From assembly GCA_024637395.1 (NCBI GenBank), contig JAGXFG010000009.1, positions 1,157-65,156 on the forward strand: a stretch of 64,000 nucleotides of DNA. The letters run 5' to 3'. Below are positions 1 through 12,626 of this stretch, piece by piece; the stretch's first letter is position 1; every line of letters begins with the position of its first letter. The notes beneath the pieces were generated by a model. It made no database searches. It was not told where the DNA came from and worked only from the letters and a program-made list of their open reading frames with translations. Source of the stretch: Burkholderiaceae bacterium (lineage in GTDB: Bacteria > Pseudomonadota > Gammaproteobacteria > Burkholderiales > Burkholderiaceae_E). The translations under genes and the position numbers were made by a program.

Positions 1-69
1 CCAAGCTGAAGACGCCAACCCGACGCTTGCCGCTAGGACCGCCAATTTCACAAAGACTTTGATGCCCAT
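1..69 (-). CDS. 5' end of a secreted-protein gene running off the left edge (only the signal peptide is visible)
   Basis: The reverse strand reads GGAG-N8-ATG, then MGIKVFVKLAVLAASVGLASSAW..., a typical Sec signal peptide. It is absent from the ORF track because the window edge truncates it. A competing + strand open frame (2..208) has no convincing start or RBS. Confidence 0.35.
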   Translation of the reverse strand, partial: MGIKVFVKLAVLAASVGLASSAW

Positions 70-460
70 GACACTTACTCCATTTAGTCGTTCAATCCAG
101 TCGCCACAGTATAAGCATCAACTGTGCCAGGACAACCATACCATTGAAATCAAACAGATTTTTCCAGGCTGTCGTTGCGACCAGGAAGATTTTGGTCGCT
201 GCCCGTAAGAATCGTCGGCACTAGCATTAGTGAACTTTGGCACAAACTAACCGTGGATCGACCTCTTTTAATCCCGCCCGGCGCGAGCAGTTCCTGTCCG
301 CGCCTGCTGAACGTACCAGTTGCCGTTGTTGAGGCGCACCGATACGCCCCGCGATCGAAGCGGCGGCCCTAGGGCCGAAACGCCTCGATCGTGCCTGCCG
401 AGGAGTCGTCTTTGCACTAAGCATCGGGTAGGGGACCGGGTCACCCCGGTCGCCCTCCCA

Positions 461-494
461 CACCACCGTACGTGCGGTTCCGCATACGGCGGTT
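461..494 (-). ncRNA. Group II intron domain V (catalytic hairpin)
   Basis: The reverse strand reads AACCGCCGUAUGCGGAACCGCACGUACGGUGGUG. The lower helix CCGCCGUAU pairs with GUACGGUGG, including G-U pairs. The upper helix is GCG/CGC with a GAAC loop, and there is a 2-nt AC bulge on the 3' strand. The catalytic triad is CGC, as in class C introns. Confidence 0.8.
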
Positions 495-703
495 CATGAT
501 TGAATCTGCAAGCGCCGGTGAGTATTCACCAGCGACACCAGCCCCATGTGGTCGAAGAACGACTTCTGGAACGCGTGGTTCATGTGGCTGGCCCCGGCAT
601 TCCACCAGGCACCGCGCCCGTTGGTCGCCGAGCGCCACGCGCGCTCCTCGGCCAATCCTCGCTTCATCAGCAGTCTAGGCCGCGGCGCAAACCCGGCCGG
701 CAT
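494..703 (-). pseudogene. C-terminal remnant of the group II intron-encoded protein (maturase/RT tail)
   Basis: The track ORF 494..703 translates as ...RLLMKRGLAEERAWRSATNGRGAWWNAGASHMNHAFQKSFFDHMGLVSLVN.... This follows the pattern typical of bacterial intron-encoded-protein C-termini (RG-x-AW-x-A-x-GRG-W-x-S/A-x-AL/F-x-F-x-GL-x-SL). The stop TGA abuts domain V. No RT domains lie upstream. Confidence 0.65.
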
Positions 704-911
704 GGCATACGGCGGCGAACTGCAGATTCCGGTAATCCTGCGGGAGGCAGGTTACTCCAGTCGTCCTTCCACCACCACGCTTTGGCTGCGCATTCCTCGA
801 GAATCGCAGACGCGCAGAACACCCTTGCCGGTCCGCTAACGTTTCCCACTGCCCGGTCCGTAGTGGACTTCCGCTTCCCGGTGGGTGCTGCTCCCTGTCC
901 GGGGCGCACCC

Positions 912-938
912 AAAAAAAACGCCCCGCATCGCGGGGCG
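912..938 (-). terminator. Rho-independent terminator of the PEP-CTERM gene 959..1783
   Basis: The reverse strand reads GCGCCCCGC-GAT-GCGGGGCG followed by TTTTTTTT, beginning about 20 nt after the stop codon. Confidence 0.85.
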
Positions 939-958
939 CTTTCTATCGTGGATTCAGT

Positions 959-1783
959 TCAGCTGCCGAGGCGACGCCTACGAATCGCGGCCAAACCGAG
1001 CAACCCCAGTCCGACCAAAGCGACGGAGACTGGCTCGGGGACTTGTGTCGGAGGCAGACATTCGCCGAGATCGCCCTTCCTGTCTGAAACGCAGCTCAGG
1101 TACGACCATTCCTCGAAGCCATCGTTATTCGGGAAACCACCCGCACCAACGGGACCACCGTAGCGACTGAACAGTTGGAGATCCGTATCGAGTGCATAGC
1201 CGCTGAACAGAGCGACCGGGATCTTCAGGTACATGTCGACGCCGTTACCGCTGCCGGCCGCCAGGCTGAAATTCAGCTTGATGGAATTGCCGTCTGTAAG
1301 GCTCCAGAGTGGTGTCACACCATCCAGTTGACCAGTAGCAAAACCGGTCAGAGAGCCATCGCCCAAAAAGATGCTGATTTCGTCGACGGTGAGGAACCAC
1401 TCGGGATCGGTCTTTACTTGATTGATATCCAACCGAAAGATTGCGAACCCATCTTGTATCCCGAGCTGACCAATCGTGACCACCTGGTTATCGTTTGGTG
1501 CACTACCCACGTCATTGTCGGCGAGAATTGATCCCGTCGTGTTGTAGTGTTGATAAGTCGGGTCTTGACCGCCAGGCGAGCCCAGGAAAGAGGGGAAAAT
1601 ACCGGTACCGACCGTGCCGCTGTTGGTGTCTGTATTGCAGACGACGGCGCCATCATTGATGCTCGTACAGACCTGCGCTCCTCCCGACCCTAGGGTCGTC
1701 ATGTCGATCTCTGCGGCGCTGGCGCCGCCCGCGCCAAGCAATAAGCCCGTCGCGACTGCCAAGGTGGAAAGCGTTTTTGACAT
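959..1783 (-). CDS. PEP-CTERM sorting-domain secreted protein (exosortase substrate)
   Basis: The C-terminus is ...PTQVPEPVSVALVGLGLLGLAAIRRRRLGS, i.e. a PEP motif, a TM helix and an Arg cluster. The signal peptide is MSKTLSTLAVATGLLLGAGGASA. The start at 1783 was chosen because GGAG lies 6 nt upstream. The track ORF extends to 1825. Confidence 0.9.
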   Translation of the reverse strand: MSKTLSTLAVATGLLLGAGGASAAEIDMTTLGSGGAQVCTSINDGAVVCNTDTNSGTVGTGIFPSFLGSPGGQDPTYQHYNTTGSILADNDVGSAPNDNQVVTIGQLGIQDGFAIFRLDINQVKTDPEWFLTVDEISIFLGDGSLTGFATGQLDGVTPLWSLTDGNSIKLNFSLAAGSGNGVDMYLKIPVALFSGYALDTDLQLFSRYGGPVGAGGFPNNDGFEEWSYLSCVSDRKGDLGECLPPTQVPEPVSVALVGLGLLGLAAIRRRRLGS

Positions 1784-1836
1784 ATTCATCTCCGTCATCG
1801 TTGCCGACTGCGAATGCGCGGTCACGACTTAAGCTC

Positions 1837-1852
1837 AGCAAACTTCGGGCCA
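1837..1852 (-). promoter_or_regulatory. Sigma-54 (-24/-12) promoter for the PEP-CTERM gene
   Basis: The reverse strand reads CTGGCCCGAAGTTTGCT against the consensus YTGGCACGrNNNTTGCW. There is one mismatch and the GG-N10-GC spacing is exact. It lies about 55 nt upstream of the start codon. Confidence 0.6.
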
Positions 1853-2058
1853 GGAAACCTTTCCAGTTAGTAATCAACCACTTAACAGATTCCGTCGGCA
1901 GCGCACCAGGACATTCGTAAAATATTTCGACAGAGCTAATTTTCCAGAAAACGAGACTCCCGCATGAGTTGGACGCTGTTTCTGCGTAACGCTCGTCTTG
2001 ATTACTGCCCGCTACCGCTGATTTCCACCTGGACGTTCTTGAGCGCACCCACGCGCGC

Positions 2059-2088
2059 CATTGAAGAAACGGCGGCCCCAAGGCCGCC
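2059..2088 (-). terminator. Terminator-like hairpin with no assigned gene
   Basis: The reverse strand reads GGCGGCC-TTGG-GGCCGCC followed by GTTTCTTCAATGG. It lies in the long spacer between the N-acyl amino acid synthase gene and the PEP-CTERM gene. Confidence 0.4.
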
Positions 2089-2330
2089 GTCCCATTTGCC
2101 ACAGATTACCGCGTGCGGTTCAGACTTTACGTTGAGAATTCGCCATCTCTTAGTCAAGATCGCCAAGTCTTCCAACCGACCCAAGCTGTCGTTTCGGAGT
2201 GACTCTGGCCCCGCTCTGCCACCCGAGCGCGACGCAAACCAGTCTGCTAGGGCATAGGAGCAGCCCGCGGTAAAGCAAACCGACACTTCCGATCCGGGGT
2301 TGTCACTACGTTGACGGAGAATCCGAACTT

Positions 2331-2363
2331 CGACCCGAAAAGGAAACGGGGCCTAACGGCCCC
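2331..2363 (-). terminator. Terminator-like hairpin ending the N-acyl amino acid synthase / small-ORF transcription unit
   Basis: The reverse strand reads GGGGCC-GTTA-GGCCCC followed by GTTTCCTTTTCGGG. The stop codon of small ORF 2353..2460 sits in the loop. Confidence 0.5.
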
Positions 2364-2681
2364 GAACAGCAAGAGCGTTCCAGGCAAGCGCACTGGCGGG
2401 GGTCATCAGCCAATCGGCGTACGCACCCCCGTTGGTGTGGAATCCGCCAGCGGCGGTCATATTTGTACTGCGGCACACCGCCCCCCAAAGTTGATGTAAT
2501 CCATGCCGGCGGGCTGGTGGGGACAATTCCCGCCAGGGAAGCAGATCCAACGGGGACTCAAAGGCATGGTTTTGACGATGTTTTCGCGGCTCGAAGCCAT
2601 GCCATACCTGGATTTATGCGGTTGAATTTCCTATCCGTATCAACGGAATCGGAGAGAGGGTTTACAGGAATCCAGGGATAT

Positions 2682-3482
2682 TCATCCAAACATTTCGCGG
2701 CTATCTTTGTCCAGGTCCAATAGCCTGTGGGCAATACCCTCCTCCTCGCGTTGGGAGAAAAAATAAGGATACAAGGATTTTTCAGATGCAGGGTGGTCAC
2801 TTGACCCGCCGAATTTCTGGATCTGGTGTTCCGCATAACCAAGTTCAAGCCTTAGCAGAACCGACGGTGCGTTGACGCGCGGGTTGTTCTTTGTTTGCCC
2901 GTGCCGTTTGAAGCCCAGCATTCTTTCATAAAAACGTCGATGCCTCGGATTGACCTCGACGAACAGGTCAGTGTAATTCCGAATGTGCCAAGCGTAGATG
3001 AAAGCGACATGAAAGACCGAAGCGAGAACCAGTTTTGAATGGACGTCGGGGTCGAAGGCGAGCTTGGTGAATTCGCAAATCCTGCTGCCCCCGCTCCTGA
3101 AAATATCGATTTCGTCCTTATAGGTTTCGTCGGCCAGAATTCCTGCGGGGGAGTCGAAAGAGATGGAAATTGTTCCGATCGTCGAGTGGTTTTCCGCGGC
3201 TATCAGGGTTAGCAGGTTGGGGTTTTCCAGCGTTTGGCTGGATGTGGCGTAGCCCCTCCACGAATACATCCGGTCGACGAGCATGTTAGCGGAGTTGCGG
3301 CCTTCATCCGTGTCGGCAAGACGGATGTTGAAGGTCTTGCGGTCTACCGCAGTATTCAGGATCTCGGCGTATGCCTCTTCTCCCTCCGGGGAAGGGGGGT
3401 CCGGCTTGGTGGGGACATAATGAACCTCGGCAATGGTCTTCCCGGTTGTCGTTTTGTCCCAGTCATGGCGAATTTGTGGCAC
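2682..3482 (-). CDS. N-acyl amino acid synthase, PEP-CTERM/exosortase-associated acyltransferase family (GNAT/LuxI-like fold)
   Basis: 266 aa with ...ICEFTKLAFDPDV...VFHVAFIYAWH...LFVEVNPRHRRFYERMLGF..., the hallmark core of FeeM-type long-chain N-acyl amino acid synthases. The GTG start has GGGAG 4 nt upstream. The gene is flanked on both sides by PEP-CTERM genes. Confidence 0.8.
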   Translation of the reverse strand: MPQIRHDWDKTTTGKTIAEVHYVPTKPDPPSPEGEEAYAEILNTAVDRKTFNIRLADTDEGRNSANMLVDRMYSWRGYATSSQTLENPNLLTLIAAENHSTIGTISISFDSPAGILADETYKDEIDIFRSGGSRICEFTKLAFDPDVHSKLVLASVFHVAFIYAWHIRNYTDLFVEVNPRHRRFYERMLGFKRHGQTKNNPRVNAPSVLLRLELGYAEHQIQKFGGSSDHPASEKSLYPYFFSQREEEGIAHRLLDLDKDSREMFG

Positions 3483-3630
3483 TTTGCTCCCACTTGATGC
3501 AAAGCGATTCCTATCCTTGCCTGAACCAGGCTCGGCGCAAACAGGGCCACCACCTTTTGGCCCGTTGCGTCACATGTCCGCCGACCACAGCAACTTCAGC
3601 AAGGATCTTGCCTGCTTGATCTTGGGAACG

Positions 3631-3653
3631 GGCCCTTGGCAGAGCCAAGGGCC
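3631..3653 (-). terminator. Perfect 10-bp stem-loop after the PEP-CTERM gene 3682..4863 (no U-tract)
   Basis: GGCCCTTGGC-aga-GCCAAGGGCC lies about 30 nt downstream of the stop codon. The lack of a T-run makes an intrinsic-terminator function uncertain. Confidence 0.4.
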
Positions 3654-3681
3654 GGATCGGACTTACTTTACTGACAGGTTT

Positions 3682-4863
3682 CTACTTGGGTGAGCGGCGA
3701 CCCCGCGTCGACCAGCCCAGCCCCAGCAATCCGAGCCCCATCAGGGCAATGGTGACAGGCTCGGGAACCTGCCGAGAGGCGACCGCGCCGACGATCCCGA
3801 ACTCCTCGCCACCATTGGTGTTGCAGCCGAGCGATCCCTCACCGCCGATAGGACCGGGACCATCTGTAACGCAGCCGACATTGACGGTGAAGACGAACAG
3901 GTCCGAGGAGTCGAACAGATTCAAATCCATGCCCGGCGCAAAGGCCAGAAAGTCCGGCTTGCCAGACCCCTTGTTGTGGTTAAGGCCCGAGTATTCGTCC
4001 CCATTGGCAGTGACCCCGGCACAACCGGTGCCGGTCAATATGCTGTATGGGCCAGCGGCAGTACAGGCCTCGACGCTGCCGTAAAAGTTCACCGTTCCGT
4101 AGTTGAACGTGGGGTCGGCGATGTTCAACCCACTGCCGTCGGTGCGGTCCAGGTTCCACTGCCCCAACATGGTCGTCTGGGTCTCGTCCCAGATTTGGAT
4201 CATGGCGCTGACCCACAGGGAGTCATCATTGCCCGTCTGGTTGTAGTCCGCATAGAGCACCGGAATGCTCGCCAGCGGGTCGAGGGTCTGCAGATAGGTC
4301 AGGATCTCGCCGACCGTCGAGGTGCCGCCCTGTGCGCTAGCGGGATCGCTATATGACTGCAACGGTGGGGGCGGGGTGGCATATTCGGTATAAATCTGCG
4401 TATTGCCGCCCCATACGCCGGTCCAACCGGGAAGGGTGTCGCTACTGGCCGTATCGACCGGATCCTGGAGACTCACGCCGCTGCCGTTCGGGTTCACGTT
4501 GGTCGCACCACCCGCGTTAGAGGTGAGATTGACTGCGATGGTGCCCGTTCCGACCGAGAAATCGTAAACGCCGAAGGTGGTTACCGGCAGGAAGGTGGTT
4601 TGGGTCGTGTTGCTCTGAATGGCGTTGAGCAGAGGTGCAGAATAGGACCAGTAATCATCGTACTTCAGTGCGATCGGGATGCCGTTCATCATAATGGCAG
4701 CCCGCGTCTCGCCCAACGCATCCAGGTAGGTTCCGTAGGTGGCGTAGGCGTTATTCTCCGGCGTTGGCAATTGGAAGAGAGCTGTTGTTGCAGCTCCCGC
4801 CCCTGCGGAGGCTGCAATGCAGGAAGCTCCAAGCAGTGCAGACATCAACTTCTTCATCTTCAT
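3682..4863 (-). CDS. PEP-CTERM sorting-domain secreted protein (exosortase substrate)
   Basis: The C-terminus is ...SRQVPEPVTIALMGLGLLGLGWSTRGRRSPK. The signal peptide is MKMKKLMSALLGASCIAASAGAGAA. GGGGGA lies 6 nt upstream of the ATG. Confidence 0.9.
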   Translation of the reverse strand: MKMKKLMSALLGASCIAASAGAGAATTALFQLPTPENNAYATYGTYLDALGETRAAIMMNGIPIALKYDDYWSYSAPLLNAIQSNTTQTTFLPVTTFGVYDFSVGTGTIAVNLTSNAGGATNVNPNGSGVSLQDPVDTASSDTLPGWTGVWGGNTQIYTEYATPPPPLQSYSDPASAQGGTSTVGEILTYLQTLDPLASIPVLYADYNQTGNDDSLWVSAMIQIWDETQTTMLGQWNLDRTDGSGLNIADPTFNYGTVNFYGSVEACTAAGPYSILTGTGCAGVTANGDEYSGLNHNKGSGKPDFLAFAPGMDLNLFDSSDLFVFTVNVGCVTDGPGPIGGEGSLGCNTNGGEEFGIVGAVASRQVPEPVTIALMGLGLLGLGWSTRGRRSPK

Positions 4864-4997
4864 GATTTTCCCCCTGACTGAGACGGGCCATCAAATCGCT
4901 TCGACAATTCGAGTGCGCTCTGCAAAATCTACGCATCTATCTGGAAAGTCACGCTGAGCGCTAGAACTTGCAGACTTTGGCACCGCATCTATGGGTA

Positions 4998-5013
4998 AGC
5001 AATTTTCATACCG
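4998..5013 (-). promoter_or_regulatory. Candidate sigma-54 promoter for the PEP-CTERM gene 3682..4863
   Basis: The reverse strand reads CCGGTATGAAAATTGCT. The GG-N10-GC spacing is correct and the -12 element TTGCT is intact, but the -24 element is weak (3 mismatches). It lies about 135 nt upstream of the start. Confidence 0.3.
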
Positions 5014-5158
5014 GCCGCCAGCCAAGCAGGCACAGGCCTATGATAAATAGGGAATTATTTAAGAATACTCTGGTTCGGCCGACCTCTCGGCGGCACTTGT
5101 CGAGCGCCAATGTAAAATTATTCGACACCTGGCCCCGCCTGACTGACCCTTGAGTGCT

Positions 5159-6247
5159 TCATATCCAGGATTCGCCCACTATCAGATCATCCAGGGAAAG
5201 CCGCAGCGAGCGGGACTCGGGCGGTTTTCCGGAGCCGACCCGTCCCATGAACAGCACGCACGCAGGTAGCGTCTCCCCCAGCAAGTGCTGCAGCTGGCCG
5301 GACAGGCGCCGCGCCCGGTCGTGCATGGCGGGGGTCTGGGAAAAGGCAAGCCCCTCACGGATATAGCGACCAAAAATCAGCGGGGTCATCTCCGGCTGCA
5401 GTTGCAGGCCCAGACTTGTGGCAGTGAGCCAGAAACGCTGGACCGCCCGGCCTGCGGCCACGTAATCCTCTATGGTTTCAGGTGCTTGATTGGCCAGGAT
5501 GGCAAAGTGCGCGGCACAGAACAGGCCTGGCAGGAGATCCATTTCGATCCGCGGCACCATGTGCCCGGCAAGATAAGTGTTAAAGAAATCGACACGCTGC
5601 CAACTCGCCATGACCCAGCGCATCAATTTGAGGGTCATCTTATCCAACCCCAAGGCCTGATCGGGTACCTTGTCCTCGCTGTATCGGGTGTTCCACTCGA
5701 TGACGTCACGGTGAACGGGATAGGCTTCGGGCAGGGTAAGCCTGAGCTTGGCATTGTCGAACATCAGTTTGGCCAACTGCCAGCGTTGTGGCCCGCCCTC
5801 GAACCAGCGCACGGTGTAACATTTTCCGCCAGCGCCTTGCAAAGCCTGTTTCTGCGATGCGGTGAGGGGGATGGTACGCATCGGCCGACGCTGCACTGAA
5901 CGCTGCCGGATATGGGGCAGCAGGGGATCGGACGTCACGGCACTGTCCGGGATCAAGTCCACAAGATAGTCGGGGTGAGGATCCGGAGAACCGGGGCGTC
6001 GCCTGAATTCCGCCCGCAGGCCATGCGGGCTGGCGGCTATAGCCAAGGTTTCCAGCAGCGCGCCCAAGGAAGTTTGGCTAGGGTGGCCGTCGAGGTCATA
6101 GACGCAATGGTCGCGGGTATCGAAGGCGTGGACGATCAAATGGCGTTCGTCGATGATCTCAAAGCGCCAGGGCTGGGTGTTGTCGCCGGAGGGCGCCCAG
6201 CGGGCGAGTTCGAGAATATCGGCGATGGGCTGGGGAATCGGCTGCAT
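5159..6247 (-). CDS. Two-lobed nitroreductase-family protein (Acg/SagB-like architecture)
   Basis: The N-terminus ADILELARWAPSGDNTQPWRFEI is the classic nitroreductase motif. At 362 aa it is about twice the size of a single nitroreductase domain. Its start codon directly follows the ThiF stop (TAGATG). Confidence 0.85.
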   Translation of the reverse strand: MQPIPQPIADILELARWAPSGDNTQPWRFEIIDERHLIVHAFDTRDHCVYDLDGHPSQTSLGALLETLAIAASPHGLRAEFRRRPGSPDPHPDYLVDLIPDSAVTSDPLLPHIRQRSVQRRPMRTIPLTASQKQALQGAGGKCYTVRWFEGGPQRWQLAKLMFDNAKLRLTLPEAYPVHRDVIEWNTRYSEDKVPDQALGLDKMTLKLMRWVMASWQRVDFFNTYLAGHMVPRIEMDLLPGLFCAAHFAILANQAPETIEDYVAAGRAVQRFWLTATSLGLQLQPEMTPLIFGRYIREGLAFSQTPAMHDRARRLSGQLQHLLGETLPACVLFMGRVGSGKPPESRSLRLSLDDLIVGESWI

Positions 6248-7129
6248 CTATAGTCCGAGTTTGCGTTTGGCGAGGGCAATGGCGAGACGCTGCAAGGGGT
6301 TGCGGTTGCCGCCGGGTCGCCAGGTCAGCGCCAGCTTGTTGCGGTAGGCATCGAAGTGATAGCCCTTGGGGGCCGTCCGAACCGGGCCGCGGCCGAGGAG
6401 AATTTTCAGGGCTTCGGTTGCCGCCACGCCAGCGCAAAGCTGGCAGGCCATGGTGGTGGACGGGCCCTTGCGATTGGCCAGATCAACTGCGGAGGGGTCG
6501 GCCAAGTAGCCCATTTGCAGGCGGGCAGGCGCAAGCCCCATGAGGAAACGCATGGGCATTTCCTCCTCGGGGCCGTCGTCCAGGCGAAAATAATCACTAA
6601 AACTCATGCCGCCCGGCAAAAAATTGAGCACCGCCGCGCCCATTCCAAGAGGGGCTGCGGTGACGGCGGGGATACCTTTTGCCGCACATGCGGCAAAGAC
6701 CTGCTGGCGAGCCTGAAAAGCGAAGAAATCCAGGCCATCGACGTAGAGGTCCACACCATCCAGAAAGGCATCCAGGTTGTCGCTTGTCACTCCGTCGGCA
6801 AATTCCTTGATTTCAAGCTCGGGATTGATGTCGCGCGCCTGGCGGGTCATGACATCCATCTTGCCCAAGCCCAAGGTGCTGACCATCGCTCCGGCCTGAC
6901 GATTGAAATTCGTCAGATCGAAGGTATCGAACTCGGCCAGATGAAATTTGCCTACGCCCAGCCGACAAAGCGTTAGCAGGTGTATCCCGCCCACGCCACC
7001 CAGCCCGGCAATCGCCACCCGTTTGTGGCGCAACTGTTGCTGCTCCGGCTGGGTCAGCCAGCCGAAGTTGCGGGAAAAAGCTTCATCATAGGTAAAGGAT
7101 TGCATATGATCAAACCATATTGAATGCAT
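6248..7129 (-). CDS. ThiF/MoeB/HesA-family E1-like adenylyltransferase
   Basis: KRVAIAGLGGVGGIHLL (a Rossmann GxGxxG) is followed by NFNRQ and a DGLD motif. No CxxC zinc pairs are present. The start may instead be the second Met at 7105 (MQSFTYDEAFSRNFGW). Confidence 0.85.
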   Translation of the reverse strand: MHSIWFDHMQSFTYDEAFSRNFGWLTQPEQQQLRHKRVAIAGLGGVGGIHLLTLCRLGVGKFHLAEFDTFDLTNFNRQAGAMVSTLGLGKMDVMTRQARDINPELEIKEFADGVTSDNLDAFLDGVDLYVDGLDFFAFQARQQVFAACAAKGIPAVTAAPLGMGAAVLNFLPGGMSFSDYFRLDDGPEEEMPMRFLMGLAPARLQMGYLADPSAVDLANRKGPSTTMACQLCAGVAATEALKILLGRGPVRTAPKGYHFDAYRNKLALTWRPGGNRNPLQRLAIALAKRKLGL

Positions 7130-7575
7130 TCGTTTCGCGCGAGATCTAGAAGGATTCAGCGCATTTTCTTAAACGGCCAAGTACGAATCACGCGTTGGAG
7201 TCCGTGCTGGGCAGCGCCAGAGAACTTGCTATTTGTCAATAAGCCGGCAACATCACCCGCTTTGGCGTGGGTTTCAGTCTTATCTAAACTGTATTGCCAA
7301 CCGCATGAGCGGCCTTAATCAGGGTATCGAGCTAGATGGATAGATTGCCGGGGCGAAGAACAAAGCCGGAATTTTCTTGCTTGAAGGCATGCGAGACTGT
7401 ACCTTTTGTAGTACTTTTAAAATAAAATTATTAATAAGCTTGTACATCGGCAAAGTCTGCTCGGTGTGACGGGCGTAGTCAACCTTTGCACCGGATTGAC
7501 TTGCCTGCCATCATGTTCTGGACACCCCGCTTAAGCCTGTGATTCAGCGCCACCCTTTCTTAAACTAGGCTTGGC

Positions 7576-7722
7576 ATGACGGACGCCACCCACTAACGAA
7601 TTTGCCCCCTGTGCGAAGCCTGCTGTGGGCTGGAGATCAAGGTACAGGACGCTGTTGTCACCAGCGTCAAGGGGGACGCCCAAGACGTCCTCATCCAAGG
7701 CCCCCCCATGGGGTGGCGCTAG
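7576..7722 (+). pseudogene. N-terminal stub of a molybdopterin-dependent oxidoreductase gene (in-frame stop, then truncated)
   Basis: It translates as MTDATH*RICPLCEACCGLEIKVQDAVVTSVKGDAQDV.... This matches the Fe-S N-terminus pattern TH-Y-R-x-C-x-LCEA-x-CGL...V-x-S-I/V-x-GD-x-x-D of this family. TAA sits where Tyr is expected. Similarity ends about 40 codons in, and the rest of the gene is absent. Confidence 0.6.
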
Positions 7723-7729
7723 CGGCGCC

Positions 7730-8499
<770 letters not shown>

Positions 8500-8503
<4 letters not shown>

Positions 8504-9306
8504 GCCACAGCCTCGCTGCCGAGATAGCTCTCGAGCACCTTGGGGTCGGTGGTCACTTCCGCGGGGGTGCCGTTGGCGATGATCTCGCCGTGGTGGAGTA
8601 CGTAGACCCGGCCGGCGAGCGCCATCACGGCGCGCATCACGTGCTCGATCAGCAGGATGGTGACGCCGTGCTCGGCGTTCAGCTTGCGAAACGCCCGCAC
8701 CATGATGTCGGTCTCGGTCGGGCGCAGCCCGGCCATCACCTCGTCGAGCAGCAGCAGGCGCGGCTCGGTGGCGAGCGCGCGGGCGACCTCGAGGCGCTTG
8801 CGATCGGGCAGCGTCAGGCTGGCGGCCGGCCAGTGGCGCAGGCCCCACATGCCCAGCGCCTGCAGCGCCCCTCGGGCGCGCTCCTCGGCCAGGCCGGCAT
8901 CGGTGGTGCCGCGGAATCCGCCCACCATGGCATTTTCCAGCACCGACATGTCGGCAAACGGCTTGACGATCTGGAAGGTGCGCCCGATGCCGAGCGCGCA
9001 AACCTGGTCGGGGCGCAGCCCGGTCAGCTCGCGGCCGTCGAAACGGATGCTGCCGCTGTCGGGCGCAAAGGTTCCCGCCATCAGGTTGAAGAGCGTGGTC
9101 TTGCCCGCGCCATTGGGGCCGATCAGCGCGACGATTTCGCCCTGCGTGACCTCGAGCGAAGCCTTGGCGACGGCCCGCAGCCCGCGAAAGCTTTTCGATA
9201 CCGACGCGACGCGCAGCAGCGGTTCGTTGCCGGTTTCGCTGGCGCGCGGCAGCCCTTGGCCATCGGCCGCCGACTGACCAGGCGCCGGTCGGCGCTCACT
9301 CATCAT
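8500..9306 (-). CDS. Liv-type ABC transporter ATP-binding protein (LivG-like)
   Basis: Motifs are GPNGAGKTT, a LivG-type signature region and LLLLDEVMAG. The start MMSERR at 9306 overlaps the end of the permease gene. Confidence 0.93.
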
Positions 9307-10348
9307 CGCGCCCCCCCTTGGCCTCGAGTTCGGCGCGACTGCGGGCAAAGCCCAGACGGCGGGCCAGCGCCGGCCAGATGCCGTGGGGCATGAACATGAT
9401 CGACAGCGCCAGCGCCACCCCGTAGATGATCTGCTTGACCCCGGGGATCTCGAGATCAAAGGCCTCGAGAAGGTGGGTGATGCCCTCGGAGAGCAGGGTC
9501 AGCAGCGCGGCGCCGAGCACCGGGCCGAACAGGGTGCCGATGCCGCCGATGATCGGCGCCAGGATGATCTCGATCGAACGCGTCATCGAGAAGATCTGCT
9601 CGGGAAACAGGTTGTTGTAGTAGAAGGCGTAGAAGACGCCGGCCAGCGCGGTCAGTCCGGCCGAGATCTGGATCGCGAACATCTTGTAGCGGAAGGTGTT
9701 GACCCCGGCCGCCCGGGCCGCTTCCTCGTTGTCGCGAATGGCCCGGAAGTAGAAGCCGGCGCGGCTGCGCAGCAGCCAGGCCGAGATCAGGAACGCCACC
9801 ACCGCCATTCCGAGCGCGAGGTAGTAGAACATCCAGGGGCCGCCGCGCATGTTGAGCCAGTCGCGAGTTCCGCCCGGGACGACGCGCAGGAAGAACCCGC
9901 CCGACCCGCCGACCCATTGGAAATGATCGAAACCGATCCTGGTGAACTCGGCAAACGCGATGGTCAGCAGCGCGAAATAGGTGCCGCCGATGCCGAACCG
10001 GAATGCCAGCCAGCCGATCACCGAGGCGGCGAGCACGCACACCACCACCGCCGCCAGCATGCCGATCCACGGCACCACCGCGAAATGCTGGTAGAGCGCC
10101 GCGGCGGTGTAGGCGCCCAGCCCGACGTAGAGCGCGTGGCCCAGCGAAAGCTGGCCGCAAAAGCCCATCATGATGTTCCACGCCAGCCCGACGAAGGCCA
10201 GGAACAACACCATGATCATTATCGAGAGCACGTAGCGGTCGGCTACCAGCGGCACCACCGCGAGCAGCGCGAAGAGCGCCAGCAGCGCCAGGCGAGAACG
10301 CGCCGGAGAATCCACCCAGACGGCGCGCAGCGAAGAGCGGATCGCCAT
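9296..10348 (-). CDS. Liv-type ABC transporter permease (LivM-like)
   Basis: 350-aa polytopic membrane protein with the LivM-like core GQLSLGHALYVGLGAY. Confidence 0.92.
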   Translation of the reverse strand: MAIRSSLRAVWVDSPARSRLALLALFALLAVVPLVADRYVLSIMIMVLFLAFVGLAWNIMMGFCGQLSLGHALYVGLGAYTAAALYQHFAVVPWIGMLAAVVVCVLAASVIGWLAFRFGIGGTYFALLTIAFAEFTRIGFDHFQWVGGSGGFFLRVVPGGTRDWLNMRGGPWMFYYLALGMAVVAFLISAWLLRSRAGFYFRAIRDNEEAARAAGVNTFRYKMFAIQISAGLTALAGVFYAFYYNNLFPEQIFSMTRSIEIILAPIIGGIGTLFGPVLGAALLTLLSEGITHLLEAFDLEIPGVKQIIYGVALALSIMFMPHGIWPALARRLGFARSRAELEAKGGRDDE

Positions 10349-10360
10349 TGCCCAGCCCCC

Positions 10361-11230
10361 CTAGCTGCGCTTGCCGAACAGGCCCTGGGGCCTGATCGCC
10401 AGCACCAGGATCAGCAGCGCAAACGACAGCATGCTCTTGGCCGAGGGCGTTATCAGCAGCCCCGCCACCGACTCGGAAACCCCGATCAGCACCCCGCCGG
10501 CCAATGCGCCAACCATCGAGCCCAGCCCGCCGATGATCACGATGACGAACGCGAGCAGCGTGTAGGAAGGGCCCGACGACGGCGTCACATCCACCAGCAG
10601 CGTCAGCAGCACCCCGGCCACCCCGACGCAGGCGGTTCCCAGCCCGAAGGTCAGGCCATAGAGGTGGGGGACGTTGAGCCCGACGATACGGGCGCCTGCG
10701 AGGTTGTCGGCGCAGGCCCGGATGGCCTTGCCGAAACCGGTAAAGCGGAAGATCGCGAACAGCACGGCGCAGGCCCCGAGCGAGACTACCGCGCAGATCA
10801 CCCGCACCTTGTCGACCAGCATCCCGCCAATCTCGTAGGAGTCGAGCGAATAGTCGACCTGGATATTGCGTGCGTCAGGGCCGAAACCGACCAGCAGGAC
10901 GTTAACCAGCACCAGCGCCACGGCCAGCAGCAGCATGAACTGGGAATGTTCGGGCCGATTGATGAAGGGATTGATCAAACCGCGCTGCAGCACATAGCCG
11001 AGCCCGAAGAAGATCAGCGCCACCGGCGCGATCATCCACAAGGGGTCGATGCCGAAAGCGGCAAACGAAACAACCGCCAGATACATGGCCAGGGCCATCA
11101 GTTCGCCGTGGGCGAAGTTGACGATCCGCACCACGCCGAAGATCACCGACAGGCCGAGCGCCATCAGCCCGTAGACCAGGCCGGTCAGGAAGCCGTTGAG
11201 GATGATGTTGAGGACTACTTCAAAGGACAA
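10361..11230 (-). CDS. Liv-type ABC transporter permease (LivH-like)
   Basis: Contains ...ILNGFLTGLVYGLMALGLSVIFG...NFAHGELM. A probable TTG start at 11230 has GAGAG upstream. The track ORF starts at 11269. Confidence 0.9.
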   Translation of the reverse strand: MSFEVVLNIILNGFLTGLVYGLMALGLSVIFGVVRIVNFAHGELMALAMYLAVVSFAAFGIDPLWMIAPVALIFFGLGYVLQRGLINPFINRPEHSQFMLLLAVALVLVNVLLVGFGPDARNIQVDYSLDSYEIGGMLVDKVRVICAVVSLGACAVLFAIFRFTGFGKAIRACADNLAGARIVGLNVPHLYGLTFGLGTACVGVAGVLLTLLVDVTPSSGPSYTLLAFVIVIIGGLGSMVGALAGGVLIGVSESVAGLLITPSAKSMLSFALLILVLAIRPQGLFGKRS

Positions 11231-11349
11231 GGCAGGGCTCTCGTGGTCTGGTGGCGCGCGGCGCCTCAACTCGCCGCGGGAGAGAGCCAGGACTGGCCCC
11301 GGCCCTCTCCGTCAGCTCGATCGTGCGGATTATTGCCTGATCGTCGGCC

Positions 11350-12597
11350 TCAGCGGCGCTTATCCCACGCTGGCACCGGGAATACCGGGGCCTTGAGCGC
11401 CGCCGATTTCGGCAGCACCACTACCGGCAACCCGTCGCGGTTCTGGATGCAGGCCGAGGCGATCTGGGTGTTCTGGCCCTTGGCGTCGAAGCTGATCGGA
11501 CCACCGATCATCATCCGGTCGGCAATGTTGGTCTGGCGAATGGCGTTGGCCAGTGCCGTGCCGTCGGTGCTGCCGGCGCGCTTGAACGCGTCGGCGGCGA
11601 TCATCAGCGCCTCGAAGGTGAAGCCGACGTTGAGCGCATGGAACTGCAGGTTCTCCTTCGGAAACTGCTTCTTGAACGATGCTTCGACGCGCTGGGTGAG
11701 CGCCGCCTTGGGGTTGTACCAGGGGACGTTCGAGATGCAGTAGTCGGAATACCTGTTGCCCAGCGCCTTGAAGAATTGCGCCTCGTACATGCCGGGCGAG
11801 CCCGGGCTGATGATGCCCTGCGGCGACCAGCGCTGCTTGACCAGTTCGCGCACCAGCAGGATGCCATCGTTGAGCCGGCTGACCAGCATGATGAAGTCGG
11901 CGTTGGTCGCCTTGGCCTTGGCCACCTCGACCGAGAGGTCGCGGGCCGCCGGGTCATAGGAGATGGTATCCAACACCTTGAACGGCAGGAAGTCGAGCCG
12001 CGGCAGGATCCCGCCGATGCCGCGCGCCATCGATTGCCCGAAGGTGTCGTTGGCGTGCATGAACACCGCCGTGCGCGGCGCCGTGGCGGTGGCCTGGAAG
12101 AGGTCGCGCATCAGCGCCAGGCCGTTGCGGATCAGCTCGACCGCGGTCGGGAAATTGCGGAAGGTGTACTTGTAGCCCTGCTCGGTGATTTGCGGGGCGG
12201 CGGCGATATTGATGACAAACGGAATCTTGCGCTGCTCGGCCACCTGGGCAATCGCCGACGCCGCGCCCGAGTCGAACGGCCCGATCAGCAGCTGCGCGCC
12301 GTCATTGATCAGCTTCTCGGCCCTTGAGCGCGCCACCTCGACGTTGGTCTCGGTGTCGGCGTTCATCAGTTCGATATCGACTCCGTACATCTCGCGCAAC
12401 GGTCCGGGCGCGATGTCGGCGCCGAGCTGGCAGGACTGGCCGAGAAAGGCCTGGACCCCCGAGCGCGGCAGCAGCACCCCTACTTTCAGCTTCTTGCCCT
12501 GGGCCCGCACAATCGACGGCGCCAGCGCAGCGGTCGCGCCCACTGCGGCGCCACCGGCCGCCAGACGGTTGAACTCCCGACGTGTAAAGTCATTCAT
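11350..12597 (-). CDS. Periplasmic substrate-binding protein, Liv/amide-urea type, with a Tat-like signal
   Basis: MNDFTRREFNRLAAGGAAVGATAALAPSIVRAQG, then KLKVGVLLPRSG. The RBS GAGGAGG lies upstream. The 622-aa track ORF is an artefactual 5' extension. Confidence 0.92.
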   Translation of the reverse strand: MNDFTRREFNRLAAGGAAVGATAALAPSIVRAQGKKLKVGVLLPRSGVQAFLGQSCQLGADIAPGPLREMYGVDIELMNADTETNVEVARSRAEKLINDGAQLLIGPFDSGAASAIAQVAEQRKIPFVINIAAAPQITEQGYKYTFRNFPTAVELIRNGLALMRDLFQATATAPRTAVFMHANDTFGQSMARGIGGILPRLDFLPFKVLDTISYDPAARDLSVEVAKAKATNADFIMLVSRLNDGILLVRELVKQRWSPQGIISPGSPGMYEAQFFKALGNRYSDYCISNVPWYNPKAALTQRVEASFKKQFPKENLQFHALNVGFTFEALMIAADAFKRAGSTDGTALANAIRQTNIADRMMIGGPISFDAKGQNTQIASACIQNRDGLPVVVLPKSAALKAPVFPVPAWDKRR

Positions 12598-12626
12598 GCT
12601 CGTCCCCTCCTCGGTTCTCGGTTTGG

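What the first reader, a model, noticed from the sequence alone, without database searches (positions are those of the whole stretch)
5159..7129. Abutted ThiF-like adenylyltransferase and double-domain nitroreductase: an unassigned two-enzyme module
The ThiF-like ORF has the Rossmann GLGGVGG and NFNRQ nucleotide-binding motifs. It lacks the CxxC zinc pairs and any obvious partner with a C-terminal Gly-Gly (no ThiS/MoaD-like gene nearby).

Its stop codon is immediately followed by the start of a 362-aa nitroreductase-superfamily protein (TAGATG). That protein is about twice the normal domain length, like Acg- or SagB-type proteins.

As far as I recall, the same two domains are fused in mycobacterial MoeY (Rv1355c), whose function is unknown. 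E1-like plus flavin-dehydrogenase combinations have been proposed in the literature to modify peptides or small metabolites.

The substrate here is unknown. A 23-codon ORF (7319..7390, minus strand, MPSSKKIPALFFAPAIYPSSSIP) lies in the long leader upstream. It is a very weak precursor-peptide candidate.
Basis: partly seen in the sequence, partly recalled or inferred. Interest (0 to 1): 0.7.

Follow-up and report, generated by a model that had tools for sequence, protein, structure and literature searches.

The report
Split acyl-oxazolone lipid synthesis gene cluster
The abutted ThiF-like and double-size nitroreductase genes are real, but they are the two halves of an already characterised enzyme system that, with a nearby N-acyl amino acid synthase gene, makes N-acyl oxazolone or dehydro-amino-acid lipids; the only fresh angle is its recurrent placement next to PEP-CTERM surface-protein genes.

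Summary
A ThiF-like ORF (6248..7129, minus strand) and a 362-aa nitroreductase-superfamily ORF (5159..6247, minus strand) abut as TAG|ATG.

The "unassigned module" reading is out of date. The same two domains, with an N-acyltransferase, form the oxazolone synthetase systems OxzAB (Pseudoalteromonas), TyzACB and TrzAS (Rv1355c "MoeY") of M. tuberculosis. Split NAS-ThiF-nitroreductase operons are also known behind N-acyl-dehydrotyrosine lipids.

An NCBIfam triple-fusion model matches all three window proteins in that order.

The ThiF adenylation residues are intact (D134 aligns with E. coli ThiF D127). The nitroreductase models at pLDDT 97 as an Acg-like flavin oxidase. In related genomes ThiF is followed directly by this oxidase in 33 of 33 Nitrosomonadales and Burkholderiales loci.

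The 23-codon "precursor" ORF is a deletion remnant of a larger ORF.

The cluster sits in a low-GC island, probably acquired from a Sulfuricella-like donor, and is interleaved with two PEP-CTERM protein genes. That association recurs in other lineages and appears unreported.

Verdict: a new member of a known kind, of modest interest.

The parts
6248..7129 (-). ThiF-type ATP-dependent cyclase (TyzB-like, or the N-terminal half of OxzB/TrzS). The probable true start is M9 at window 7105.
   Evidence: NCBIfam PRK08223 equivalog scores 465 bits against a cut-off of 266. It also aligns with the ThiF segments of the fusion models PRK14851, PRK14852 and PRK07877 (Rv1355c family). Pfam ThiF scores 1e-42. 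It is 54-67% identical to the N-terminal halves of 29 of 29 ThiF-oxidase fusion proteins. D134 aligns with E. coli ThiF D127, and the adenylation residues are at least 97% conserved in 70 members. The closest solved relative is TcdA, the t6A cyclodehydratase.
5159..6247 (-). Flavin-dependent oxidase of the nitroreductase superfamily (FDO; TyzC-like, or the C-terminal half of OxzB/TrzS). Predicted to desaturate the C-alpha-C-beta bond.
   Evidence: The Rv1355c-family model aligns over residues 8-354 (profile 377-716, E 1.5e-31). The Acg family scores 124 bits, below its cut-off of 199. The AlphaFold model has pLDDT 97.1 and pTM 0.95. The best PDB fold is 2YMV, the Acg homologue, with TM 0.66/0.72. 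Invariant Arg, Gln and Trp residues are listed. An FDO follows ThiF directly in 33 of 33 non-Ectothiorhodospiraceae loci.
2682..3482 (-). FeeM-type N-acyl amino acid synthase (OxzA/TyzA/NasY-like). Predicted to make the N-acyl amino acid substrate.
   Evidence: Pfam FeeM scores 1.5e-49. PDB FeeM 2G0B scores 9e-13. It aligns with the N-terminal segment (32-225) of the triple-fusion model PRK14852. It is 41% identical to the FeeM gene that directly precedes ThiF in Sulfuricella. Its DNA is 84% identical to a second FeeM paralogue in Sulfuricella sp. L004.
3682..4863 (-). PEP-CTERM surface or secreted protein (393 aa), encoded between the oxidase and the acyltransferase.
   Evidence: Pfam PEP-CTERM scores 3.1e-06 and the tail reads VPEPVTIALMGLGLLGLGWSTRGRRSPK. 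A homologue also follows the oxidase in the close relative L052.
959..1825 (-). Second PEP-CTERM protein (288 aa) at the distal end of the island.
   Evidence: Pfam PEP-CTERM scores 4.4e-05 and the tail reads VPEPVSVALVGLGLLGLAAIRRRRLGS. There is a weak sub-threshold match to the flocculation protein PepA.
2347..2364 (-). Terminator-like GC hairpin with a T-run, downstream of the FeeM-type gene. Possibly the end of a ThiF-FDO-PEP-FeeM transcription unit.
   Evidence: This is a consensus match only, and the number of such sites in the region is no higher than in shuffled sequence.
7319..7390 (-). The 23-codon ORF. It is a deletion remnant of a 75-codon ORF (weakly Gp49/HigB-toxin-like), not a precursor peptide.
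   Evidence: In L052 the same start, MPSSKKIPALFFA, continues for 75 codons, and the window lacks about 200 bp of it. Pfam Gp49 scores E 0.0031, below threshold. The leader has no match in the 47 related loci then in hand.

Best explanation
The two abutted genes are the split form of an oxazolone synthetase. With the FeeM-type gene 1.7 kb downstream they form a three-enzyme pathway for an N-acylated, alpha,beta-dehydro amino-acid lipid.

Step 1 (inferred from homology): the FeeM-type synthase transfers a fatty acyl group from acyl-CoA or acyl-ACP to the amino group of an amino acid. In characterised systems the amino acid is aromatic.

Step 2 (inferred; catalytic residues shown to be intact): the ThiF-type enzyme adenylates the free carboxylate with ATP/Mg2+. 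The amide oxygen then attacks, closing a 5(4H)-oxazolone ring.

Step 3 (inferred; fold and conserved residues shown): the Acg-like FMN oxidase uses O2 to desaturate the C-alpha-C-beta bond, giving a 4-alkylidene or arylidene oxazolone. The order of steps 2 and 3 may be interchangeable, as in TyzBC.

The oxazolone is hydrolytically labile, so the stable product may be the ring-opened N-acyl-dehydroamino acid.

Here the cluster is a horizontally acquired, rearranged copy in an uncultured Burkholderiales genome, interleaved with two PEP-CTERM protein genes. The amino acid, the acyl chain and the physiological role are not determined.
For: - Domain and family: all three window proteins align, in order, with the NCBIfam triple-fusion model PRK14852 (FeeM 32-225, ThiF 312-586, oxidase 623-777). 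The ThiF and oxidase align with the di-domain models PRK14851 and PRK07877, the 'Rv1355c family'.
- Rosetta stone: 29 of 29 fusion proteins of 650-724 aa, found with the oxidase, carry an N-terminal domain 54-67% identical to the window ThiF.
- Biochemistry of homologues: OxzAB (bioRxiv 10.1101/2020.06.11.147165), TyzACB (PMC10404671), TrzAS/Rv1355c (PMC12856293), and split NAS-ThiF-nitroreductase operons in Thalassotalea, Massilia and Stieleria (PMC12479983). Grigg et al. state that TyzC's subcluster contains Betaproteobacteria and Hydrogenophilalia members that mostly sit next to a ThiF gene.
- Catalytic competence of ThiF: D134 aligns with E. coli ThiF D127, the residue on which the TrzS D217A mutant was modelled. 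R77 and K90 are also retained, and these residues are at least 97% conserved in 70 members.
- Oxidase: the model has pLDDT 97 and its nearest fold is 2YMV, the same nearest structure reported for the TrzS desaturase domain.
- Context: the oxidase directly follows ThiF in 25/25 Nitrosomonadales-type and 8/8 Burkholderiales loci. An acyltransferase lies immediately upstream in 15/24 and 7/8 of these.
- The nearest solved relative of the ThiF is TcdA, which performs an ATP-dependent cyclodehydration.
Against: - No product chemistry can be tested here.
- I could not obtain the TyzB, TyzC, OxzB or TrzS sequences, so direct pairwise identity and SSN placement are untested.
- The equivalents of TrzS R540 and Q651 (probably R169 and Q284) are inferred only from HMM coordinate offsets.
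- The window lacks the FeeM paralogue that normally sits directly upstream of ThiF. It keeps only the more distal paralogue type, 41% identical. That gene is separated from the oxidase by a PEP-CTERM gene, so pathway completeness in this host is not certain.
- The island shows decay: a Gp49-like remnant and a group II intron fragment.
- For thalassotalic and kyonggic acids and stieleriacines, no oxazolone has been observed and the role of ThiF is called enigmatic (PMC12479983), so the end product may not be an oxazolone.
Confidence: 0.8

Rival explanations
1. [quoted passage not shown] The reactive acyl-oxazolone, or its dehydro-N-acyl amino acid, would be a lipid used in processing, anchoring or regulating PEP-CTERM proteins, and not a free secondary metabolite. 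This extends the best explanation and does not replace it.
For: - Two PEP-CTERM genes are interleaved with the cluster in the window.
- A PEP-CTERM ORF starts within 1.5 kb downstream of the module in 16 of 41 loci. These ORFs belong to at least 7 unrelated protein families in three lineages.
- Nitrosospira clusters also carry a TIGR03694 'PEP-CTERM/exosortase system-associated acyltransferase' (263 bits), and Sulfuricella clusters an EDSAP-1 PEP-CTERM protein.
- Lol-like ABC, LolA-like and DUF1302 genes are conserved neighbours, which suggests envelope lipid trafficking.
- N-acyl amino acid synthases were previously linked to this system (Craig et al. 2011, cited in PMC11072679).
Against: - The evidence is purely associative.
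- There is no exosortase gene among the 10 largest ORFs checked in the window.
- The mycobacterial, Pseudoalteromonas and planctomycete systems work without PEP-CTERM genes.
- The loci are phylogenetically non-independent.
- PEP-CTERM genes are numerous in these genomes, and their background density was not measured.
Confidence: 0.15
2. The pair is a peptide-modifying (RiPP or TOMM-like) E1 plus dehydrogenase acting on a small precursor encoded in the upstream leader.
For: E1-like proteins (MccB, PaaA) and nitroreductase-fold dehydrogenases (SagB/McbC) do modify peptides. MccB and PaaA appear as weak PDB matches, with E about 1e-6.
Against: - The 23-codon ORF is a deletion remnant of a 75-codon ORF.
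- The leader is absent from the 47 related loci then in hand, where an acyltransferase gene usually sits directly upstream instead.
- The oxidase gives no SagB-type (TIGR03605) hit at E<=0.01.
- All five island ORFs are otherwise accounted for, and none is YcaO-like.
- The family's characterised members act on small molecules.
Confidence: 0.02
3. The ThiF-like protein is a MoeB/ThiF/MoeZ-type sulfur-carrier-protein adenylyltransferase for Moco or thiamine, with its partner encoded elsewhere, as many database names imply ('MoeY', 'molybdopterin/thiamine biosynthesis adenylyltransferase').
For: Database names of homologues. Generic ThiF superfamily similarity.
Against: - Scores against every MoeB, ThiF and MoeZ equivalog are far below cut-off, for example ThiF TIGR02356 at 84.9 against 275.
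- The protein has no zinc CxxC pairs, no crossover-loop Cys and no rhodanese domain.
- There is no ThiS/MoaD-like ORF nearby.
- The genetic linkage is to an oxidase and an acyltransferase, not to Moco or thiamine genes.
- Grigg et al. concluded that 'MoeW' (TyzB) is an oxazolone cyclase.
Confidence: 0.02
4. The copy in this window is a decaying, non-functional passenger on a horizontally acquired island.
For: - The segment has lower GC (0.57-0.59 against 0.65-0.69).
- It carries a Gp49-like remnant with an internal deletion and a group II intron domain V/VI fragment.
- The operon-type FeeM is lost, and the Lol-like, DUF1302 and GT neighbours are absent from all 64 kb.
Against: - All five ORFs are intact and full length.
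- ThiF and the oxidase are 90-100% identical to database homologues with all conserved residues retained.
- The same ThiF-oxidase-PEP layout occurs in an independent sample, L052.
Confidence: 0.1

Closest known systems
TyzA/TyzB/TyzC of Mycobacterium tuberculosis (Rv2336 / Rv2338c 'MoeW' / Rv2337c); N-acyl tyrazolone biosynthesis (Grigg et al. 2023, PMC10404671)
   Same: The architecture is the same: a separate ThiF-type ATP-dependent cyclase and a separate Acg-like flavin-dependent oxidase of about 360-370 aa in one operon, plus a FeeM/AHL-synthase-fold N-acyltransferase nearby. The paper states that TyzC's subcluster (FDO-A23) includes Betaproteobacteria and Hydrogenophilalia members that mostly sit next to a ThiF gene.
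   Different: In the window the acyltransferase is on the same strand but separated from the oxidase by a PEP-CTERM gene. The host is a Gram-negative Burkholderiales bacterium. There is no mmpL or cys neighbourhood. The substrate is unknown.
OxzA/OxzB oxazolone synthetase of Pseudoalteromonas rubra and other proteobacteria (de Rond, Asay & Moore; bioRxiv 10.1101/2020.06.11.147165)
   Same: The domains and predicted chemistry are the same: N-acylation, ThiF-type cyclisation and nitroreductase-type oxidation. The window ThiF is 54-67% identical, and the oxidase 37-50% identical, to proteobacterial ThiF-oxidase fusion proteins of 650-724 aa.
   Different: OxzB is a single di-domain protein, whereas here the two halves are separate but translationally abutted genes. 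I could not confirm that the fusion proteins retrieved include OxzB itself.
TrzA/TrzS (Rv1356c / Rv1355c 'MoeY'); N-acyl tryptazolone biosynthesis (Kleetz et al. 2025, PMC12856293)
   Same: NCBIfam's 'Rv1355c family' model aligns with both window proteins: ThiF at E 2.5e-21, and the oxidase over its whole length at E 1.5e-31. The catalytic Asp is conserved. The nearest solved structure for the oxidase domain is the same (2YMV).
   Different: Scores are far below the equivalog cut-off (75.6 and 109 bits against 476), so the window proteins are not members of that subfamily. TrzS is fused and has an obligate order of cyclisation then desaturation.
[quoted passage not shown]
   Same: These are split three-gene NAS-ThiF-nitroreductase operons in Pseudomonadota, with overlapping or nearly abutting genes. 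The products are N-acyl-2,3-dehydrotyrosines, plausibly ring-opened oxazolones.
   Different: No sequence comparison was done here. Those clusters are not reported to be associated with PEP-CTERM genes.
PEP-CTERM/exosortase-associated N-acyl amino acid synthases (TIGR03694; Craig, Cherry & Brady 2011, cited in PMC11072679)
   Same: [quoted passage not shown] Related Nitrosospira clusters carry a true TIGR03694 member beside the ThiF-oxidase pair.
   Different: The window's acyltransferase is FeeM-type and does not match TIGR03694 at E<=0.01. As far as I could search, the ThiF-oxidase pair has not been discussed in that context. The 2011 paper itself could not be read.

Membership tests
Oxazolone synthetase systems (OxzAB / TyzACB / TrzAS) | ThiF-type domain with an intact ATP/Mg adenylation site (the Asp equivalent to TrzS D217 / E. 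coli ThiF D127) | tested here: met
   D134 aligns with ThiF D127. G42xGGxxG48, D68, N76-R77-Q78, K90 and D131 are also present and are at least 97% conserved in 70 stand-alone and fused members.
Oxazolone synthetase systems (OxzAB / TyzACB / TrzAS) | Acg-like flavin-dependent oxidase (FDO-A type) fused to, or directly adjacent to, the ThiF domain | tested here: met
   The genes abut as TAG|ATG. The AlphaFold model has pLDDT 97 and its best fold match is 2YMV. The Rv1355c-family HMM aligns across residues 8-354. All 29 fusion proteins match both halves.
Oxazolone synthetase systems (OxzAB / TyzACB / TrzAS) | FMN-site residues equivalent to TrzS(Msmeg) R540 and Q651 | tested here: inconclusive
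   The TrzS sequence was not obtainable. By HMM coordinate offset the equivalents are about residues 171 and 282. R169 and Q284 are at least 90% conserved in 83 sequences. This is inference only.
Oxazolone synthetase systems (OxzAB / TyzACB / TrzAS) | FeeM/AHL-synthase-fold N-acyltransferase encoded in the same cluster | tested here: met
   ORF 2682..3482 scores Pfam FeeM 1.5e-49 and PDB 2G0B 9e-13. It matches the N-terminal segment of the triple-fusion model PRK14852. It is on the same strand, 1.7 kb downstream, and not adjacent.
Oxazolone synthetase systems (OxzAB / TyzACB / TrzAS) | ATP- and O2-dependent formation of an acyl-oxazolone product | not testable with these tools
   This requires heterologous expression or in vitro assay with LC-MS.
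Oxazolone synthetase systems (OxzAB / TyzACB / TrzAS) | Placement in the same SSN or phylogenetic clade as TyzB/OxzB (ThiF subcluster 2) and TyzC (FDO-A23) | not tested
   The reference sequences could not be retrieved. The only support is the published statement that FDO-A23 includes Betaproteobacteria and Hydrogenophilalia.
NCBIfam PRK08223 (NF006077; ThiF-like 'hypothetical protein' equivalog) | Score above the curated cut-off over the full length | tested here: met
   465 bits against a cut-off of 266; residues 9-291 align with profile positions 2-285 of 296.
NCBIfam Rv1355c family (PRK07877) and di-domain PRK14851 | Score above the curated cut-off (a single fused protein) | tested here: not met
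   For PRK07877 the scores are 75.6 and 109.4 bits against 476. For PRK14851 they are 319 and 80.6 bits against 1170. The window proteins are homologous, but split and of a different subfamily.
Acg family FMN-binding oxidoreductase (NF047509) | Score above the curated cut-off | tested here: not met
   124.3 bits against 199. The protein is structurally Acg-like but not a member of that subfamily, consistent with the published FDO-A versus FDO-B split.
MoeB/ThiF/MoeZ sulfur-carrier adenylyltransferases | Equivalog HMM score, two CxxC zinc pairs, and a ThiS/MoaD partner with C-terminal Gly-Gly | tested here: not met
   All such models score far below cut-off. The only CxxC is CQLC at 229-232, in the region preceding the conserved C-terminal ALK helix. 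No Cys aligns with the ThiF zinc or crossover cysteines. No GG-ending small ORF lies in window 1..14000.
TOMM / azoline RiPP machinery (SagB-SagC-SagD) | SagB-type dehydrogenase domain, YcaO cyclodehydratase and a precursor peptide | tested here: not met
   The oxidase gives no TIGR03605 (SagB-type) hit at E<=0.01. The five island ORFs are all otherwise assigned. The candidate precursor ORF is a deletion remnant.
PEP-CTERM/exosortase system-associated acyltransferase (TIGR03694) | HMM score above cut-off for the acyltransferase | tested here: not met
   The window's FeeM-type protein has no TIGR03694 hit at E<=0.01. A Nitrosospira neighbour of the same ThiF-oxidase pair does (263 bits against 112).
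Anti-phage E1/E2 (Cap2-like) systems | A specific PADLOC model match with partner genes | tested here: not met
   There are only partial Rossmann-region matches of 44 bits or less to E1-E2 models, and no hits for the four other proteins.

The most novel reading that the evidence does not exclude
The most novel reading not excluded is this. In Nitrosomonadales, Burkholderiales and related bacteria the acyl-oxazolone module is an accessory of the PEP-CTERM/exosortase system. Its electrophilic azlactone, or the derived dehydro-N-acyl amino acid, would be exported by the co-conserved Lol-like, LolA-like and DUF1302 machinery. It would then serve as a lipid partner (acyl donor, anchor or acceptor) or as a signal for exosortase-sorted surface proteins. 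That would assign a cellular role both to oxazolone lipids and to the long-unexplained PEP-CTERM-linked N-acyl amino acid synthases.
Probability: 0.12. Interest if true: 0.7.

Novelty: new member of a known kind. Interest (0 to 1): 0.3.

Why it matters
- Annotation: the result corrects a widespread mis-annotation. Homologues are named "MoeY", "molybdopterin/thiamine biosynthesis adenylyltransferase" or "hypothetical protein", and the NCBIfam models PRK08223, PRK14851 and PRK14852 are still labelled hypothetical.
- Distribution: the oxazolone / N-acyl-dehydroamino-acid lipid pathway, so far studied in Pseudoalteromonas, mycobacteria and a few natural-product producers, turns out to be very tightly conserved (72-91% identity) across ammonia-, nitrite- and sulfur-oxidising Nitrosomonadales. 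It can also move horizontally into Burkholderiales.
- Open question: the physiological role of oxazolone lipids is unknown in every system studied. Their recurrent placement beside PEP-CTERM genes and Lol-like lipid-trafficking genes offers a concrete, testable hypothesis linked to floc and biofilm biology.
- For the finding as stated (an unassigned two-enzyme module with a possible precursor peptide), the answer is ordinary: the pathway is already characterised.

Tried and rejected
- Retrieving the TyzB, TyzC, OxzB or TrzS sequences failed. Name look-ups for ten representatives of matching length gave only metagenomic or unrelated names. No solved structure of these proteins is in the PDB. 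Direct identity and SSN placement were therefore not computed.
- The window's own 74-kb contig could not be fetched with four exact-sequence look-ups. What lies beyond window position 1 is unknown, including whether Lol-like or DUF1302 genes are there.
- Craig et al. 2011 (the NAS and PEP-CTERM paper) is not held. I cannot say whether it mentioned ThiF or nitroreductase neighbours.
- The precursor-peptide idea is rejected.
- The defence-system reading is rejected.
- The sulfur-carrier reading is rejected.
- The promoter and terminator scan gave no more sites than shuffled sequence, so operon structure remains inferred from strand and spacing.
- The supplement of PMC10404671 lists no taxa for the FDO-A23 subcluster.


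Full report
**1. The observation**

The two ORFs are real. ORF 6248..7129 (-) encodes a 293-aa ThiF-like protein, and ORF 5159..6247 (-) encodes a 362-aa nitroreductase-superfamily protein. The stop and start codons abut as TAG|ATG.

GLGGVGG (residue 42) and NFNRQ (residue 74) are present. Pfam gives ThiF at 1e-42 and Nitroreductase at 1.8e-10.

A 100%-identical database entry and almost all homologues are 285 aa long. The true start is therefore probably the second Met, at window 7105.

The protein has four cysteines. Two of them form a single C229-Q-L-C232. By alignment with TcdA this motif lies in the region preceding the conserved C-terminal ALK helix, not at the MoeB/ThiF zinc sites. The stretch that aligns with E. 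coli ThiF's zinc and crossover-loop cysteines has no Cys.

No ORF of 40-130 aa ending in Gly-Gly lies within window 1..14000.

**2. What the pair is**

NCBIfam places the ThiF protein in the equivalog PRK08223 (465 bits, cut-off 266, labelled "hypothetical protein").

Both proteins also align with fusion models:
- PRK14851, 679 aa, ThiF plus nitroreductase.
- PRK07877, the "Rv1355c family protein". The oxidase aligns over residues 8-354 to profile positions 377-716, at E 1.5e-31.
- PRK14852, 989 aa.

The N-terminal segment of PRK14852 (positions 32-225) matches a third window ORF, 2682..3482 (-). That ORF scores Pfam FeeM, N-acyl amino acid synthase, at 1.5e-49 and matches the FeeM structure 2G0B at 9e-13.

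So a three-domain Rosetta stone links an N-acyltransferase, the ThiF and the nitroreductase.

An exhaustive search with the nitroreductase found 2,980 representatives. They are a mix of stand-alone proteins of about 360 aa and fusions of 650-724 aa. All 29 fusions examined carry an N-terminal domain 54-67% identical to the window ThiF over its full length.

**3. The pathway is characterised**

- de Rond, Asay and Moore showed that OxzA (N-acyltransferase) and OxzB (a ThiF-nitroreductase di-domain protein) from Pseudoalteromonas rubra and other proteobacteria make N-acyl tyrazolones and phenazolones (bioRxiv 10.1101/2020.06.11.147165).
[quoted passage not shown] They noted that TyzC's subcluster contains Betaproteobacteria and Hydrogenophilalia sequences, mostly adjacent to a ThiF gene (PMC10404671).
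The D217A variant (ThiF ATP site) lost cyclase activity, and the R540A and Q651A variants (FMN site) were impaired in desaturation (PMC12856293).
- A 2025 study describes split NAS-ThiF-nitroreductase operons in Thalassotalea, Massilia and Stieleria, linked to N-acyl-2,3-dehydrotyrosine lipids (PMC12479983).

**4. Tests of catalytic competence**

*ThiF.* In the alignment with E. coli ThiF (1ZUD/1ZFN), window D134 aligns with D127, the residue on which the TrzS D217A mutant was modelled. R77 aligns with R70 and K90 with K83. Across 70 diverse stand-alone and fused members, G42, G44, G45, G47, G48, D68, N76, R77, Q78, K90, D131 and D134 are at least 97% conserved.

The nearest solved relative is TcdA (4e-16), an E1-like enzyme that performs an ATP-dependent cyclodehydration of t6A. 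From established knowledge, that chemistry is analogous to oxazolone ring closure.

*Oxidase.* A model built on an 83-sequence alignment has pLDDT 97.1 and pTM 0.95. Its best PDB match is 2YMV, the M. smegmatis Acg homologue (E 2e-12, TM 0.66/0.72). Ordinary dimeric nitroreductases cover only half of the model. 2YMV is also the nearest structure reported for the TrzS desaturase domain.

Invariant residues are Q25, W27, G62, R116, R120, G266, W273, L274, R336, G338, R346 and R349. R169 and Q284 are at least 90% conserved and lie at the offsets expected for TrzS R540 and Q651. That mapping is inference, because I could not obtain the TrzS sequence.

**5. Genomic context elsewhere**

Forty-four related genome loci, plus context look-ups, were analysed with ORF calling and phmmer/hmmsearch.

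| Lineage | Oxidase directly after ThiF | Acyltransferase directly upstream |
|---|---|---|
| Nitrosomonadales-type (Sulfuricella, Nitrosospira, Nitrosovibrio, Nitrotoga, Thiobacillus, Sulfuriferula) | 25/25; in 17 the start codon immediately follows the stop | 15/24 (present somewhere in the locus in 22/26) |
| Piscinibacter/Burkholderiales | 8/8 (a divergent oxidase) | 7/8 |
| Thioalkalivibrio/Ectothiorhodospira | 0/12 within 10 kb | 9/13 (present in the locus in 13/13) |

The Nitrosomonadales-type loci also share a conserved neighbourhood: DUF1302, two LolC/E-like FtsX permeases, an ABC ATPase, a LolA-like (TP_0789-like) protein, a macrolide-type glycosyltransferase, a hexapeptide acyltransferase and PEP-CTERM proteins. 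These PEP-CTERM proteins include the named EDSAP-1 family. Nitrosospira also carries a bona fide TIGR03694 "PEP-CTERM/exosortase system-associated acyltransferase".

Family conservation is striking. ThiF is 83-91% identical and the oxidase 72-87% identical across these genera.

**6. The window's version**

The order is ThiF, oxidase, PEP-CTERM protein (3682..4863), FeeM-type synthase (2682..3482) and a second PEP-CTERM protein (959..1825), all on the minus strand. A terminator-like hairpin lies after the FeeM-type gene.

The window lacks the FeeM paralogue that normally sits directly upstream of ThiF. It keeps the second paralogue type, which is 41% identical in protein. Its DNA is 84% identical to the distal FeeM of Sulfuricella sp. 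L004.

No DUF1302, FtsX, LolA-like or GT homologues occur anywhere in the 64 kb.

The segment 1..~7700 has GC 0.57-0.59, against 0.65-0.69 for the rest of the window. Its ThiF-oxidase DNA is 90% identical to Sulfuricella. The flanking core gene proS is closest to Burkholderiales, at 81% identity to Zeimonas and Burkholderiaceae. The remaining large ORFs sampled are housekeeping genes.

Together these point to a horizontally acquired island. A group II intron domain V/VI match lies at 423..494 (-), with 48.5 bits against a gathering score of 40.

**7. The 23-codon ORF**

L052 is an independent metagenomic contig whose oxidase is 96% identical. It shares the leader and the ThiF-oxidase-PEP layout at 94% DNA identity.

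There, the same start (MPSSKKIPALFFA...) opens a 75-codon ORF with a weak, sub-threshold Gp49/HigB-toxin-like match (E 0.0031). The window has lost about 200 bp from inside that ORF.

The leader matches none of the 47 related loci then in hand.

The ORF is therefore a deletion remnant and not a precursor peptide.

**8. Rivals**

- A sulfur-carrier role fails on HMM cut-offs, zinc and crossover cysteines, partner genes and context.
- A TOMM or RiPP role fails on the absence of SagB-type and YcaO features and of a conserved precursor.
- A defence E1 role fails, because only generic Rossmann matches of 44 bits or less were found.
- A decaying passenger cannot be excluded, but all ORFs are intact with conserved residues.

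**9. What may be new**

A PEP-CTERM ORF begins within 1.5 kb downstream of the module in 16 of 41 loci with enough sequence. These proteins fall into at least 7 families that are unrelated outside the sorting tail, across three lineages.

N-acyl amino acid synthases were already linked to PEP-CTERM/exosortase systems (Craig et al. 2011, cited in PMC11072679).

I found no paper that holds ThiF, nitroreductase and exosortase together. The only paper holding both "oxazolone" and "PEP-CTERM" mentions them in unrelated passages.

The link is associative. PEP-CTERM background density was not measured, and no exosortase gene was seen in the window.

**10. Verdict**

The locus is a new, horizontally acquired and rearranged member of the known acyl-oxazolone / N-acyl-dehydroamino-acid lipid pathway.

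Interest is modest (0.3). Most of it comes from the annotation correction, from the tight conservation in nitrifiers and sulfur oxidisers, and from the PEP-CTERM and Lol-like association as a lead to the unknown function of oxazolone lipids.

Noticed in passing
window 423..494 (-): Rfam RF00029 group II intron (domain V/VI) match, 48.5 bits against a gathering score of 40, E 2.5e-7, full model length. It lies about 460 bp downstream of the second PEP-CTERM gene. No reverse-transcriptase ORF is evident in 1..958, so it is probably an ORF-less or truncated intron remnant at the edge of the island.
   Followed up: partly
window 1..~7700 versus the rest: A low-GC segment (0.57-0.59 against 0.65-0.69). 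Its ThiF-oxidase DNA is 90% identical to Sulfuricella (Nitrosomonadales), while the flanking proS is Burkholiales-like at 81% identity to Zeimonas. This indicates a horizontally acquired island next to liv ABC-transporter genes.
   Followed up: partly
window 7319..7532 (-); L052 145..372: The leader upstream of ThiF holds the remnant of a 75-codon ORF, weakly Gp49/HigB-toxin-like (Pfam E 0.0031, below threshold). The window copy has an internal deletion of about 200 bp. This is possibly a decayed toxin-antitoxin gene of the mobile island.
   Followed up: partly
L001, L002, L004-L020, L043, L045 (about 10 kb around ThiF): In Nitrosomonadales the FeeM-ThiF-oxidase genes sit in a conserved neighbourhood: DUF1302, two LolC/E-like permeases, an ABC ATPase, a LolA-like (TP_0789-like) protein, a macrolide-type glycosyltransferase, a hexapeptide acyltransferase and an EDSAP-1 PEP-CTERM protein. 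This suggests export, and perhaps glycosylation or acetylation, of the lipid. None of these genes is in the window.
   Followed up: partly
L004, L005, L010, L023-L026, L033, L036-L039, L041, L046, L047 and window 3682..4863: A PEP-CTERM ORF starts within 1.5 kb downstream of the ThiF(-oxidase) module in 16 of 41 loci. The proteins belong to at least 7 families with unrelated mature domains. The association is therefore with the sorting-signal class, not with one protein.
   Followed up: partly
L024-L031, L034, L035, L040, L042, L044 (Thioalkalivibrio / Ectothiorhodospira): A close ThiF homologue (62-69% identical) is preceded by one or two acyltransferase-like genes but has no oxidase within 10 kb, even with a profile search. 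This could be a ThiF-only variant making a saturated oxazolone. Ectothiorhodospira also encodes a separate 669-aa ThiF-oxidase fusion.
   Followed up: no
L004 8191..9990; L006 8036..9986; window 2682..3482: There are two FeeM paralogue types, about 41% identical to each other. Sulfuricella sp. has both in tandem upstream of ThiF. Nitrosospira has one about 9 kb away plus a TIGR03694 enzyme. The window retains only the distal type.
   Followed up: partly
homologues listed: The ThiF (83-91% identity) and the oxidase (72-87%) are unusually well conserved across different genera of nitrifiers and sulfur oxidisers for a 'secondary metabolite' pathway. Many are mis-named MoeY or molybdopterin/thiamine adenylyltransferase. 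The NCBIfam models PRK08223, PRK14851 and PRK14852 are still labelled 'hypothetical protein'.
   Followed up: no
L043 9120..19524: In this MAG contig nearly every gene of the cluster (FeeM, ThiF, oxidase, ABC, LolA-like, FtsX, GT) is split into two ORFs. This is more likely frameshift sequencing or assembly error than genuine pseudogenisation.
   Followed up: no
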